From positions 510,001 through 542,000 of the forward strand of contig NC_007517.1 in the NCBI RefSeq assembly GCF_000012925.1: a stretch of DNA of 32,000 bases, given 5' to 3'. Below are positions 22,747 through 25,114 of this stretch, in pieces (position 1 is the first letter of the stretch; each line of letters begins with the position of its first letter). A program made the translations under genes and the position numbers. The notes beneath the pieces are model-generated. The model was not told the origin of the DNA, ran no database searches, and worked only from the letters and a program-made list of their open reading frames with translations. This DNA is from Geobacter metallireducens GS-15 (GTDB lineage Bacteria; Desulfobacterota; Desulfuromonadia; Geobacterales; Geobacteraceae).

Positions 22747-23946
22747 ATGAAAGAAACCTTCGACCACGGCGGCACGGTCTTCGCCGTTGCCCGCCAACTG
22801 GGCGTTTCCCCCGATGAGATTCTCGACTTCTCGGCGAGCATCAACCCCCTCGGCCCCCCGGTGGAGGCACGCGGAGCGGTGGCGGCCGCCTTTGACCGGC
22901 TCGTCCACTACCCCGACAGCGGGGCCACGGAACTGCGGGATGCCCTAGCCCGCCGCCACCATCTTCTTCCCGAAAATATCTGCGTTGCCAATGGCTCCAC
23001 GGAACTGATTTATCTGGTTCCCCGGCTCGTCGGCGGCAGACGCGGCCTCATCGTCGCCCCCCCCTTCTCCGAGTATGCCAAGGGGCTCTCCCGGGCCGGC
23101 TGGGAGATCGACTATCTGGACCTCTCCCCCGCCGATTGCTTTACCCTTCACCTGGAGGCTCTCGACCAGCGCCTGGCGAAGGGGTGCGATCTCCTCTTTC
23201 TCGCCAATCCCGGCAATCCGACAGGGGCGCTTATCCCCCGCGAGGTCATCGTTGAGGTCGTCAGCCTCTGCCGCCGCCACGGTACCTTCCTCGTTCTCGA
23301 TGAGGCGTTCATCGACTTTTGCGAGGAGGAGTCGGCCACGGACCTGGTGGTCGCAGGGGAAGGGGCTGTGGTACTCCGCTCCATGACCAAGTTCTACGCC
23401 ATTCCGGGGCTCCGACTCGGCTACGCCATGGGGAGCGAGGAGGTAATCGCCCGGCTCTCCGCTCTGCGGGAGCCCTGGAGCGTCAACACCCTGGCCCAGG
23501 CCGCCGGCCTCGCCTGTCTGGCTGACGGGGAGTACCCGGCCCGGACCCGCGCCCTCGTGGAGACGGAGCGGGAGTGGCTTTCCGCCGGCATCGCCAGACT
23601 GCCGGGGCTTGCGGTCTATCCTTCCGCCGCCAACTACCTCCTGGTCCGGATTGACGCCGGACCCACGGCCCCGGAGCTGGCCACGCGGCTTCTCGCCGAG
23701 CGGGTCCTCATCCGGGACTGCTCCTCCTTCCGGGGGCTTTCGGAGCGGTTCTTCCGGGTTGCCGTGCGGGGGACAGAGGAGAACAGAAGGCTTCTGGAAT
23801 TGTTGGGGAGGGTTTTTGCTGTGGATATCACTCGAAAACACAGAGCAACCGTGTTCTCAGTCAACAAATTAGTGCAGAAGTGGAGTGAATTTCGAGTGAT
23901 CCCACTTCTGGTTGTTTTTCACCATGGCATTGAGGATGGTGAGTAG
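22747..23946 (+). CDS. cobD: L-threonine-O-3-phosphate decarboxylase, with a 3' tail altered by IS insertion
   Basis: HGG...[48 protein letters not shown] (PLP lysine) are CobD class I/II aminotransferase-fold motifs. From codon ~368 onward the ORF reads into the IS element, antisense to the transposase 3' end. Confidence 0.85.
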
Positions 23947-24825
23947 TTTTCGCATGCAAGCGGTGATCGCGACTTTGTGAAGTTTTCCGGCGCTTGTAAG
24001 GCGTTGATAGAAGGCTTTTATAACCGGGTTAAACCTGGCGGCACACAATGTTGCCATGTACAGGACAGAACGCACGGTTGCTCTGCCACCGGAGATTGCG
24101 CGCTTTCCACGGAATTTGCCACTGTCCCGATTATAGGGGCATACTCCGACCAGAGCGCCAAGCTGCTGTCGGGAAATGGTCCCCAACTCCGGAAGTGCTG
24201 CCAGTATGGTGGCCGCAGTCACAGGGCCGATGCCCTTGACACTGGTAAGGATTTCTTCTTTTGCCTTCCAGGATTCGCTGGACTGAATAAGAGTTGAGAT
24301 GTCTTTATCAACGTCATCGATCTGCTGTGTCAGCCAGGCAATATGGGTCATGATGCCTTTGCGGACCGTAGGTGCAGCGGAAATCACGCGATTTTTTTCC
24401 GCCACAAGCATCTCGACCAACTGCCGGCGGCGGGCCAGCAGTGCTGCTAGATTTTGGCTTGTCTCGTCCTTGAGCGGCCTGATTTCAGGCTTGATGGCTT
24501 GGGCAAATCGGGCAATGATCTTGGCATCAAGAATATCGGTCTTCGCCAGCAGCCCGCATGCTTTGGCAAAGTTTCTGACCTGCCGAGGATTAACCACGAC
24601 CACTGGCAGACCCGCTGCTGATAAGGTGCTGACAGCTAGCATCTCCAAGCCGCCGGTGGCTTCGAGAACAATCCGACAAGGGGCGTTCGTAATGAGCCAC
24701 GTCGTCAGCTCAGCACAACCGGCATCATCGTTAGTCACCCTTTTCTGGTCACCAGTTGGCATGAGGTAGACATCAAGATGCTCTTTACTAACGTCGACTC
24801 CAACAACTGCATCATTGGGTTCCAT
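23869..24825 (-). CDS. IS110-family DEDD transposase/recombinase
   Basis: ATG at 24825 after [19 protein letters not shown] (D), [10 protein letters not shown] (E), [12 protein letters not shown] (D..D). C-terminal Transposase_20-like domain ([43 protein letters not shown]). The track ORF extension to 25053 is rejected. Confidence 0.9.
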
Positions 24826-25009
24826 ATTCTCTCCAGTCCCTTTCTTGCGAAAATTCGGGCTCGTTTCGGCCCAAGCAACCGTTCGGGTTGAGGAAAGATG
24901 GACACGACGCATTACGCTCTGTGACGGGCTCAATTGGCCCAAGCAACGACCAAGCTGTCGTGTCCAATTCTGGAGAACATATAACCGGTTACTGAAACAT
25001 ACAAGCAAC
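24826..25009 (-). ncRNA. Candidate IS110 bridge (guide) RNA region in the transposase 5' leader
   Basis: 184 nt non-coding leader. 12 nt direct repeat GGCCCAAGCAAC at 24868-24879 and 24936-24947, whose AGCAAC equals the junction hexamer. CAAGCAACCGT (24872-24882) is identical to the predicted circle junction (25002-25009 joined to 23850-23852). Confidence 0.4.
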
Positions 25010-25114
25010 TGAGCAACTGAGAAAAATCTTTGAGAATGAATAACCTGGAGCAATAGTTACAGTACCCTGTGTGCTTGACGAGTTGCTTTCTCTGTTGCTC
25101 TGTTGCTCTGTGTT
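25010..25114. repeat. CACAGAG/AGAGCAAC-type hairpin F5 (remainder; first 13 nt of arm 1 at 23837-23849)
   Basis: Arm 1 remainder TGAGCAACTGAGAAA (25010-25024), 62 nt spacer, arm 2 TTTCTCTGTTGCTCTGTTGCTCTGTGTT (25087-25114, period 8). Confidence 0.75.

What the first reader, a model, noticed from the sequence alone, without database searches (positions are those of the whole stretch)
23837..25114. IS110-family element inserted precisely inside one arm of a hairpin repeat, with guide-like motifs in its 184 nt leader
Excising 23850-25009 rebuilds arm 1 as AACACAGAGCAAC+TGAGCAACTGAGAAA. This is 26/28 complementary to arm 2 (25087-25114), and both mismatches fall at inter-unit positions. The empty site is therefore recoverable from this window alone. 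AGCAAC flanks the element on both sides. The family is known to target repetitive palindromes and, in IS621, to use a bridge RNA encoded in the 5' non-coding end. That RNA has two loops that base-pair target and donor DNA. Here the leader carries GGCCCAAGCAAC twice, 68 nt start to start (24868 and 24936), and each copy contains the junction hexamer. The first copy extends to 11 nt of identity (CAAGCAACCGT) with the predicted circular-intermediate junction. The AGAGCAAC-type hairpin units offer several potential landing sites, so this may be a natural RNA-guided recombinase programmed against a host repeat family.
Basis: partly seen in the sequence, partly recalled or inferred. Interest (0 to 1): 0.7.

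Follow-up and report, generated by a model that had tools for sequence, protein, structure and literature searches.

The report
ISGme8: a bridge-RNA insertion sequence
This is a copy of ISGme8, an already named IS110-family mobile element of Geobacter metallireducens, sitting in one arm of a known host hairpin repeat; its 5' leader encodes an IS621-type bridge RNA whose guides match that repeat, so it is a clear but ordinary example of a mechanism published in 2024.

Summary
Removing the element rebuilds a 26/28 hairpin, and GGCCCAAGCAAC occurs twice in the leader. The ORF (23869-24825, minus strand) is a DEDD/Ser IS110 recombinase and matches IS621 and ISCro4 in the PDB. A covariance model built only from 25 relatives' leaders hits 24834-24972(-) at 91 bits (E 1.5e-25). 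The two 12-mers are the left target guide and left donor guide, each joined to a conserved hairpin. The guide assignments are: LTG GUCGUUGCU, RTG UCACAGAG, LDG ACGGUUGCU (9/9 with the right end plus core) and RDG AU..GCAAG, as in IS621. Relatives show the true core is CT, not AGCAAC; the extra GTTG is shared by chance between host repeat and element end. Six fully read insertion sites, plus a seventh read in part, all lie at GTTGCT|C(T/C)GTGTT in the outermost repeat unit. However, the protein is 100% identical to the ISGme8 transposase of Geobacter metallireducens. The hairpin belongs to that genome's published class 1 GTTGCTYN paired sites, and the 2009 genome paper lists this locus (Gmet_I106A/B) and notes ISGme8 at a fixed distance. 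REP-like targeting by bridge-RNA IS110 elements is established. Verdict: real, correctly read, already known in kind. Only the ISGme8 guide assignment is new.

The parts
23837..23843 (-). Right target flank (RT). On the minus strand it reads CTGTGTT. It is the outer end of host hairpin arm 1.
   Evidence: It pairs with RTG UCACAGAG at 5 of 6 non-core positions (7/8 with the core).
23844..23845 (-). CT core copy at the right-end junction.
   Evidence: CT is the only sequence shared by both junctions across all related multi-copy elements.
23846..25003 (-). ISGme8 proper: 1158 bp between the two CT cores, G+C about 0.50-0.55 against about 0.65-0.70 in the flanks.
   Evidence: It is 99.2-99.9% identical to copies L001 and L002.
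23846..23868 (-). Right end (RE), only 23 nt after the stop codon. It carries the left donor sequence ACGGTTG (23846-23852) and a -35-like TTGACT (23859-23864).
   Evidence: RE ends and LDG sequences covary among relatives.
23869..24825 (-). Recombinase gene, 318 aa, with catalytic D11, E55, D97, D100 and S235.
   Evidence: Pfam DEDD_Tnp_IS110 at 2e-27 and Transposase_20 at 7e-21. PDB matches to ISCro4 at 3e-41 and IS621 at 1e-37. The protein is 100% identical to the ISGme8 transposase.
24829..24834 (-). Shine-Dalgarno-like GGAGAG. In the minimum-free-energy fold it pairs with UCUCCAG at 24970-24976.
   Evidence: The pairing is seen in only 11 of 29 relatives.
24834..24972 (-). [quoted passage not shown]
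   Evidence: Covariance model R1, built without this sequence, scores 91.2 bits (E 1.5e-25) over the full model length and gives the only hit in the window. In the relatives' alignment the structure is 95% paired, and 19 of 24 pairs show compensatory change.
24942..24950 (-). Left target guide (LTG), GUCGUUGCU.
   Evidence: It occupies the LTG position in the alignment. It is identical to the target top strand at 6-7 of 9 positions at the three sites of the identical element.
24925..24941 (-). Target-loop hairpin UGGGCCAAUUGAGCCCG.
   Evidence: Helix 2.
24917..24924 (-). Right target guide (RTG), UCACAGAG, followed by the handshake-position bases CG.
   Evidence: Its reverse complement CTCTGTGA compares with the target CTCTGTGT at 7/8. 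Across 21 families, cognate RTG-target matches average 4.5 of 6 against 1.6 for non-cognate pairs.
24900..24965 (-). Basal stem of the target-binding loop, GGACACGAC (24957-24965) paired with GUCGUGUCC (24900-24908), enclosing the loop.
   Evidence: Helix 1 has 12 of 13 pairs with compensatory change. The >=90%-identical variant carries an A>G change matched by U>C.
24874..24882 (-). Left donor guide (LDG), ACGGUUGCU.
   Evidence: It matches the right end plus core (23844-23852) at 9/9.
24856..24873 (-). Donor-loop hairpin UGGGCCGAAACGAGCCCG.
   Evidence: Helix 4.
24844..24855 (-). Right donor guide (RDG) region, AAUUUUCGCAAG. GCAAG pairs with CTTGT of the left end, with one G:T pair.
   Evidence: GCAAG is invariant in the clade. 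IS621 has the same discontiguous AU-nn-GCAAG pattern.
24973..25003 (-). 5' part of the left end. It starts with TGTAT (the right donor sequence) and contains a -10-like TATGTT at 24996-25001.
   Evidence: All relatives start CT|TGTAT.
25004..25005 (-). CT core copy at the left-end junction.
25006..25024 (-). Left target flank: the inner part of host hairpin arm 1, reading TTTCTCAGTTGCTCAGTTG on the minus strand.
25025..25086 (.). The 62-nt spacer (loop) of the host paired site.
   Evidence: Spacers differ between family members.
25087..25114 (+). Host hairpin arm 2 (Gmet_I106B). At 25102-25114 it holds an unoccupied, equally good target, GTTGCT|CTGTGTT.

Best explanation
The feature is an intact copy of ISGme8, an IS110-family (IS621-type) insertion sequence of Geobacter metallireducens. 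It sits in the outermost GTTGCTYN unit of one arm of a host 'class 1' paired-repeat hairpin, between Gmet_0487 (a cobD-like gene) and Gmet_0489.

Proposed mechanism, inferred by homology and not tested experimentally:
- The element excises as a circle. This joins the right end ...TTGACTGAGAACACGGTTG-CT to the left end TGTATGTTT... and creates a sigma-70 promoter, TTGACT-17 nt-TATGTT.
- That promoter transcribes the ~150-180-nt leader as a bridge RNA.
- The donor-binding loop holds the circle junction. [quoted passage not shown]
- The target-binding loop holds the host repeat. [quoted passage not shown]
- The DEDD/Ser recombinase (D11, E55, D97, D100, S235) exchanges strands at the CT core.

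The duplicated GGCCCAAGCAAC motif is the LTG or LDG (both ending GUUGCU) fused to the first bases of the conserved hairpin in each loop. The apparent 6-bp flanking repeat is the 2-bp core plus a GTTG that the host repeat and the element's right end share.
For: Recombinase: the Pfam domains are present. The protein matches IS621 and ISCro4 in the PDB, and the catalytic motifs align.

Element ends and core: multi-copy relatives define the ends as ACAGTTG-CT and CT-TGTAT, with CT as the only shared junction sequence.

RNA structure: in an alignment of 29 leaders, 95% of cells pair, 19 of 24 pairs show compensatory change, 0 of 500 shuffles reach this, and slid controls give 36-50% pairing. A covariance model built without this sequence hits 24834-24972(-) at 91.2 bits, E 1.5e-25, and this is the only hit in the window.

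Guides: guide and target covary across 21 families. Cognate RTG-target matches average 4.5 of 6 against 1.6 for non-cognate pairs, with 0 of 10,000 permutations reaching the observed value. LDG and the right end covary (ACGGTTG, ACAACTG, ACAGTCG, ACAGTTA). The strand logic and the discontiguous RDG match the published IS621 description.

Insertion sites: six fully read, independent sites of the identical element or its >=90% variant all lie at GTTGCT|C(T/C)GTGTT, and a seventh, partly read contig (L093) is consistent.

Promoter: the junction promoter is visible in the sequence and is conserved in relatives. The scan finds no minus-strand promoter in the integrated state.

Identity and literature.
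Against: - There is no experimental evidence here for the RNA, the circle or RNA-dependent recombination.
- LTG matches the natural left flank at only 6-7 of 9 positions. IS621 also tolerates a natural mismatch at target position 4.
- The RDG spacing differs slightly from the clade consensus (AUUUUCGCAAG against AUccGCAAG).
- The handshake positions cannot distinguish cognate from non-cognate DNA, because target and donor share GTTG.
- The 2009 paper reports that an unrelated IS481-family element (ISGme9) also sits at a fixed distance from these repeats. This hints that the repeat's structure or bound proteins may contribute to site choice.
Confidence: 0.9

Rival explanations
1. Site choice is made mainly by DNA structure or by proteins, not by RNA guides. 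On this view the recombinase, or IHF/HU bound to the class 1 sites, recognises the extruded hairpin, and the guide complementarity is secondary.
For: All insertions lie in the outermost unit of a hairpin arm. The LTG match is only 6-7 of 9. ISGme9, of the IS481 family, is also reported at a fixed distance from these sites. For ISPpu10, a hairpin 5' of the target boosts recombination.
Against: Guide and target covary strongly across 21 related families that have unrelated targets. Only the outermost unit offers CT followed by CTGTG, which is what the RTG reads; the inner units are followed by CNGTTG. In the ISPpu10 work, structure adds to RNA matching and does not replace it.
Confidence: 0.07
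2. The leader is only a 5' UTR or translational attenuator for the transposase, and the duplicated 12-mer is a relic of an internal duplication.
For: In the minimum-free-energy fold, a closing helix UCUCCAG/CUGGAGA sequesters the Shine-Dalgarno sequence. The two loop modules share 16 of 35 aligned positions: a 12-nt run (GTTGCTTGGGCC) and a 4-nt run (GCCC), with a further GAGCCCG hairpin 3' side out of register because the DBL hairpin is one base longer.
Against: The Shine-Dalgarno pairing is found in only 11 of 29 relatives. By contrast, the two-loop architecture and the guide-target and guide-donor complementarity are conserved and covary.
Confidence: 0.02
3. AGCAAC is a 6-bp target-site duplication made by a cut-and-paste (DDE-type) mechanism.
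For: The hexamer is present at both junctions.
Against: The protein is a DEDD/Ser recombinase, not a DDE transposase. In relatives only CT is shared at the two junctions, and GTTG belongs to the conserved right end ACAGTTG. Removing one CT-bounded unit restores a sequence that occurs uninterrupted elsewhere.
Confidence: 0.01

Closest known systems
IS621 (E. coli), the founding bridge-RNA IS110 element (Durrant et al. 2024, PMC11208160; Hiraizumi et al. 2024, PMC11208158)
   Same: Both have a DEDD plus Ser recombinase; phmmer gives 1e-37 against 8wt6. Both have a bridge RNA of about 180 nt encoded in the left end upstream of the gene, with two internal loops, a CT core and the right donor sequence TGTAT. 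Both have the discontiguous RDG AU-nn-GCAAG with a G:T pair, a -35 box in the right end and a -10 box in the left end. Both naturally target a host extragenic palindromic repeat and tolerate an imperfect LTG match.
   Different: This is a distant homologue of IS621: the match is significant only at the profile level, and I did not compute an identity figure. The RTG is longer (CT plus 5-6 nt, against CT plus 2). The left donor sequence is ACGGTTG rather than one ending in AT. The target is GTTGCT|CTGTG in Geobacter GTTGCTYN repeats rather than ATCAGGCCTAC in E. coli REPs. Target and donor share positions 4-7 (GTTG).
ISCro4 (PDB 9t56)
   Same: It is the best match among solved structures (3e-41), with the same domain order and catalytic motifs.
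   Different: I did not compare its RNA or its target.
ISPpu10 and ISPpu9 of Pseudomonas putida (bioRxiv 10.64898/2026.03.19.712850; PMC12288879)
   Same: These are IS110-family elements inserted in REP palindromes that often occur as convergent pairs. The target lies next to or within a hairpin, and the left flank keeps most of the hairpin after insertion.
   Different: ISPpu10's bridge RNA is reported to lack the 5' stem-loop and to need a short stem-loop 5' of the target. Here the arms are 28 nt, made of tandem octamers, with a 60-110-nt variable spacer. A structural requirement was not tested.
IS1111-group elements with seekRNA
   Same: They use an RNA-guided DEDD/Ser recombinase of the same superfamily.
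   Different: ISGme8 has only 23 nt after the stop codon, and its RNA lies upstream.
Class 1 'predicted global regulator binding sites' of G. metallireducens (Aklujkar et al. 2009, PMC2700814)
   Same: The hairpin here is one of them, Gmet_I106A/B. It consists of tandem GTTGCTYN octamers on opposite strands with a variable spacer. ISGme8 was noted at a fixed distance from these sites.
   Different: The 2009 paper read them as IHF/HU sites and had no mechanism for the IS association. The bridge-RNA guides now explain the fixed position.

Membership tests
IS110 family, IS110 group (IS621-type bridge-RNA elements) | Recombinase with an N-terminal DEDD RuvC-like domain and a C-terminal Tnp domain carrying a catalytic Ser | tested here: met
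   PF01548 at 2e-27 and PF02371 at 7e-21. D11, E55, D97, D100 and S235 align with the IS621 and ISCro4 catalytic motifs.
IS110 family, IS110 group (IS621-type bridge-RNA elements) | A short conserved core (CT) at both junctions | tested here: met
   CT is the only junction sequence shared in five multi-copy relatives and here.
IS110 family, IS110 group (IS621-type bridge-RNA elements) | Absence of terminal inverted repeats | not tested
   I ran no inverted-repeat search on the element's ends.
IS110 family, IS110 group (IS621-type bridge-RNA elements) | Structured non-coding RNA in the left end, upstream of the gene, with two internal loops each holding a hairpin | tested here: met
   The leave-one-out covariance model hits at 91.2 bits. 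Four helices are 95% paired, with 19 of 24 pairs showing compensatory change. Rfam 15 has no such family, so it gave no hit.
IS110 family, IS110 group (IS621-type bridge-RNA elements) | Target loop: LTG has the same sense as the left target plus core, and RTG is complementary to the core plus right target | tested here: met
   At the three sites of the identical element, LTG matches at 6-7 of 9 and RTG at 6-7 of 8. Covariation across the clade gives 0 of 10,000 permutations reaching the observed value.
IS110 family, IS110 group (IS621-type bridge-RNA elements) | Donor loop: LDG matches the right end plus core, and RDG pairs discontiguously with the core plus the start of the left end | tested here: met
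   LDG matches at 9/9. GCAAG pairs with CTTGT with one G:T pair, and an upstream AU is present. The IS621 pattern is described.
IS110 family, IS110 group (IS621-type bridge-RNA elements) | A promoter is assembled across the RE-LE circle junction | tested here: inconclusive
   TTGACT-17-TATGTT is present in the modelled junction and the equivalent is present in relatives. The scan found no minus-strand promoter in the integrated state. This is sequence evidence only.
IS110 family, IS110 group (IS621-type bridge-RNA elements) | Circular intermediate, expressed bridge RNA and RNA-dependent recombination | not testable with these tools
   This needs outward PCR, small-RNA-seq and recombination assays.
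ISGme8 (named IS of Geobacter metallireducens) | Transposase identical to the entries named ISGme8 | tested here: met
   Exact-sequence look-up returned ABB30295.1 and others, named 'Transposase of ISGme8, IS110 family', from G. metallireducens GS-15 and RCH3. The locus is listed as Gmet_0488.
IS1111 group (guide RNA 3' of the gene) | A non-coding RNA region downstream of the recombinase gene | tested here: not met
   Only 23 nt separate the stop codon from the element's end.
Class 1 GTTGCTYN paired sites of G. metallireducens | Tandem GTTGCTYN octamers on opposite strands separated by a variable spacer | tested here: met
   Family members with identical arms and different spacers are shown.

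The most novel reading that the evidence does not exclude
In ISGme8 the target loop looks partly copied from the donor loop. The two share an identical GUUGCUUGGGCC run and a shared GAGCCCG hairpin 3' side. As a result the element targets a host repeat whose left half (GTTG-CT) equals its own right end.

This has two consequences. Each insertion leaves a right junction (ACGGTTG-CT-CTGTG) that matches the guides as well as the original site did. The handshake positions also cannot tell donor from target. This could favour tandem re-insertion or recombination between the IS and the repeats, and so rearrangements. It would be a natural case of target specificity arising by loop-to-loop conversion.

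A second reading concerns the GTTGCTYN hairpins. They also attract an IS481-family element, so they may act as a structural or protein-marked landing pad that works on top of RNA guidance.
Probability: 0.12. Interest if true: 0.45.

Novelty: already known. Interest (0 to 1): 0.2.

Why it matters
The case is a clean natural illustration, outside Enterobacteria and Pseudomonas, of a bridge-RNA recombinase programmed against a host repeat family. It also gives a mechanistic explanation for a 2009 observation: ISGme8 lies at a fixed distance from the GTTGCTYN paired sites of Geobacter metallireducens. The explicit guide assignment (LTG, RTG, LDG, RDG) and the set of related elements with different targets could help anyone mining orthologues for genome engineering, or re-annotating the Geobacter 'global regulator binding sites' as REP-like safe harbours for insertion sequences. 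It does not open a new question.

Tried and rejected
- **Rfam 15.** Scans at the gathering threshold and at a permissive E-value gave no bridge-RNA family. The only hits were a cobalamin riboswitch elsewhere and chance snoRNA-like matches. I therefore built a model from relatives.
- **Genome collection scan.** It returned no copy more than 58% identical, so the host genome could not be read directly and a full census of ISGme8 flanks was not possible.
- **Search for the true empty allele of this locus.** Contigs carrying the neighbouring gene Gmet_0489 all stop a few bases inside the IS, or (L079) continue into the trpC region after 12 nt of the left end. That is probably an assembly chimera through the shared repeat, or a rearrangement. 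The reconstructed arm was found uninterrupted, but at other loci.
- **Plasmid collection.** It held only distant IS110 matches.
- **Six-base target-site duplication.** Rejected after comparison with relatives.
- **Translational attenuation by Shine-Dalgarno sequestration.** The pairing is not conserved; it is found in 11 of 29 relatives.
- **attC-like (integron) reading of the hairpins.** I considered this briefly and dropped it. The sites are scattered next to housekeeping genes and were already described as a dispersed repeat family.
- **IS621 donor sequence.** I could not find it in the paper's main text. I inferred only its right half, TGTAT, from the structural paper's base-pair list.
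Full report
**1. Observation**

- Window 23837-23849 (AACACAGAGCAAC) joined to 25010-25024 (TGAGCAACTGAGAAA) is 26/28 complementary to 25087-25114. 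Both mismatches fall at the eighth, degenerate position of an 8-nt unit.
- The rebuilt 136-nt site folds as single-stranded DNA at -31.9 kcal/mol, against -12.9 +/- 2.4 for shuffles (z = -8.0).
- GGCCCAAGCAAC occurs exactly twice in the 32-kb window, at 24868 and 24936, against 0.01 expected.
- G+C drops from about 0.65-0.70 in the flanks to about 0.50-0.55 across 23850-25000.

**2. The gene**

- The minus-strand ORF 23869-24825 (318 aa, ATG at 24825) carries DEDD_Tnp_IS110 (2e-27) and Transposase_20 (7e-21).
- Among solved structures it matches only the bridge recombinases ISCro4 (9t56, 3e-41) and IS621 (8wt6, 1e-37).
- The catalytic motifs align as GVD11VS, LE55AT, KTD97ILD100A and RDS235G.

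**3. True ends and core**

- A scan of species-representative genomes found 76 loci encoding relatives (45-58% identity for the main clade), several of them multi-copy within one MAG.
- Comparing copies within a genome fixes the element ends. Every member ends ...ACAGTTG-CT on the right and starts CT-TGTAT... on the left.
- CT is the only sequence common to both junctions.
- In the window the right end reads ACGGTTG-CT and the left end CT-TGTATG.
- The element proper is 23846-25003 (1158 bp), with cores at 23844-23845 and 25004-25005.
- TGTAT is also the right donor sequence of IS621, as deduced from the base pairs listed in the structural paper.

**4. The leader is a bridge RNA**

- Rfam 15 has no family for it, so I aligned the leaders of 29 distinct elements.
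- RNAalifold and an explicit pair count give four helices: a 13-bp basal stem enclosing a first internal loop with its own hairpin, and a second stem enclosing a second loop with a hairpin.
  - 95% of cells are paired, and 19 of 24 pairs show compensatory change.
  - 0 of 500 shuffles reach these values.
  - Pairing falls to 36-50% when the partners are slid.
- A covariance model built from 25 relatives without the window sequence finds one hit in the window: 24834-24972 on the minus strand, full length, 91.2 bits, E 1.5e-25.
- Read against the published IS621 definitions, the window RNA parses as follows.
  - Target-binding loop: stem GGACACGAC/GUCGUGUCC, LTG GUCGUUGCU (24942-24950), hairpin UGGGCCAAUUGAGCCCG, RTG UCACAGAG (24917-24924).
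  - Donor-binding loop: LDG ACGGUUGCU (24874-24882), hairpin UGGGCCGAAACGAGCCCG, and an RDG region AAUUUUCGCAAG (24844-24855).

**5. Guides match donor and target**

- LDG equals the right end plus core at 9 of 9 positions.
- GCAAG pairs with CTTGT of the left end with a G:T pair, preceded by AU. This is the discontiguous pattern seen in the IS621 structure.
- LDG and the right end change together in relatives (ACGGTTG, ACAACTG, ACAGTCG, ACAGTTA). Those right ends were located by searching for the LDG sequence, so this point is partly circular.
- For the target, LTG has the sense of the left flank and RTG is complementary to CT plus the right flank. At the window site LTG matches 6 of 9 and RTG 7 of 8.
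- Across 21 families with unrelated targets, the six non-core RTG positions match the cognate flank at 4.5 on average, against 1.6 for non-cognate flanks. At family level, 0 of 10,000 permutations reach the observed value.

**6. Other copies**

The same protein is encoded at other places.
- In G. metallireducens RCH3 (L001) the flanks are TCCGTTGCT|...|CCGTGTTATT, inside a hairpin made of CGGAGCAAC units.
- A Logan contig (L002) has TCAGTTGCT|...|CTGTGTTTCAATG.
- A variant at least 90% identical (P0002) adds three fully read sites, all GTTGCT|C(T/C)GTGTT in the outermost unit of a hairpin arm.
  - A fourth contig, L093, shows the same junction but is read only partly.
  - The variant also carries a compensatory A>G/U>C change in the target-loop stem.
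- Only the outermost unit is followed by CTGTG, which is what the RTG reads. This explains the fixed position.
- The other arm of the window hairpin (25102-25114) is an equally good, empty target.

**7. The repeat family and the empty site**

- I did not find the unoccupied allele of this exact locus. Contigs carrying the neighbouring gene break a few bases into the IS.
- The reconstructed 27-mer does occur uninterrupted in eight metagenome contigs at other loci. Each has the matching opposite arm 60-110 nt away and an unrelated spacer. The rebuilt arm is therefore a genuine family member.

**8. Identity and literature**

- Exact-sequence look-up names the protein 'Transposase of ISGme8, IS110 family' of Geobacter metallireducens GS-15 and RCH3. 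The neighbours are Gmet_0489 and a metal ABC-transporter lipoprotein of the same genome.
- The 2009 genome paper (PMC2700814) describes 24 pairs of 'class 1 predicted global regulator binding sites'. These are tandem GTTGCTYN octamers on opposite strands with a variable spacer. The paper states that ISGme8 or ISGme9 may lie at a fixed distance from them.
- Its Table S4 lists this locus as Gmet_I106A (5' of Gmet_0488, the ISGme8 transposase) and Gmet_I106B (3' of Gmet_0489). It also lists about a dozen further ISGme8 copies next to such sites.
- Bridge RNAs of IS110 elements, their CT core, their junction promoter and their natural REP targeting were published in 2024.
- Hairpin-associated targets have since been reported as widespread in the family.

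**9. Mechanism**

Shown here:
- the recombinase family and the element ends;
- the RNA fold and its covariation;
- the guide-donor and guide-target complementarity;
- the recurrent site.

Inferred by homology:
- excision to a circle;
- transcription of the bridge RNA from the junction promoter TTGACT-17-TATGTT, which is present in the modelled junction and conserved in relatives, while no minus-strand promoter is called in the integrated state;
- simultaneous pairing of the two loops with the circle junction and the host repeat;
- strand exchange at CT.

A contribution from hairpin structure or bound proteins is possible, but it was not tested.

**10. Verdict**

The object is an already named IS of an already described mechanistic class, in an already described host repeat, at an already annotated locus. 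What is new is limited to the explicit guide assignment for ISGme8, the explanation of the 'fixed distance', and the note that target and donor share GTTG-CT. I score interest low.

Noticed in passing
window 3460-3664 (+): A cobalamin riboswitch (RF00174, 109.8 bits) lies upstream of a gene cluster that includes a CobD-like aminotransferase-family ORF near the IS; I did not annotate the other genes.
   Followed up: no
window 22747-23946 (+): The cobD-like ORF reads through the hairpin arm into the IS, so the insertion replaces its C-terminal tail. With the IS removed the ORF ends ...[16 protein letters not shown], inside the hairpin spacer. With the IS present it ends ...[37 protein letters not shown].
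   Followed up: partly
L079 1830-1990: One Logan contig runs from Gmet_0489 through the hairpin and 12 nt of the ISGme8 left end (TGTATGTTTCAG), then directly into the trpC (IGPS) region. That region is next to another class 1 site (Gmet_I117B) in the 2009 table. This is either an assembly chimera through the shared repeat or an IS/repeat-mediated rearrangement.
   Followed up: partly
L082-L089: The 27-nt hairpin arm is identical in eight environmental contigs at different loci. It usually begins just after a stop codon (..TGAAACACAG..). Spacers are unrelated and 60-110 nt long. Conserved arms with variable interiors are unusual for REPs, and their function remains unexplained (they were proposed as IHF/HU sites in 2009).
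   Followed up: partly
PMC2700814 Table S4: ISGme9, an IS481-family (DDE) element, is also reported at a fixed distance from the same GTTGCTYN sites. Two unrelated transposition systems appear to use one repeat family.
   Followed up: no
window 24856-24882 and 24925-24950 (-): In ISGme8 the target-loop module (GUUGCUUGGGCC..GAGCCCG) is nearly a copy of the donor-loop module. In most relatives the two hairpins differ. This suggests loop-to-loop conversion as a route to a new target.
   Followed up: partly
window 24829-24836 and 24970-24976 (-): The minimum-free-energy fold closes the whole bridge RNA with UCUCCAG/CUGGAGA, which sequesters the transposase Shine-Dalgarno sequence. A comparable pairing is predicted in only 11 of 29 relatives.
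   Followed up: partly
L026-L028, L052, L066 (Acidobacteriota MAG); L004-L010 (Chloroflexia MAG): Related multi-copy elements sit in their hosts' own repeats. Examples are the palindrome GAGCCCGCGAAGCGGGCGAC and the repeat GCCGTGCCCCTACCGG. Their LTG and RTG are changed to match, which gives a ready-made set of natural re-programmings.
   Followed up: partly
L090-L093 against window 24900-24965: The variant element, at least 90% identical, carries GGACACGGC/GCCGUGUCC in place of GGACACGAC/GUCGUGUCC. This is a compensatory pair change in the target-loop stem within the ISGme8 lineage.
   Followed up: yes
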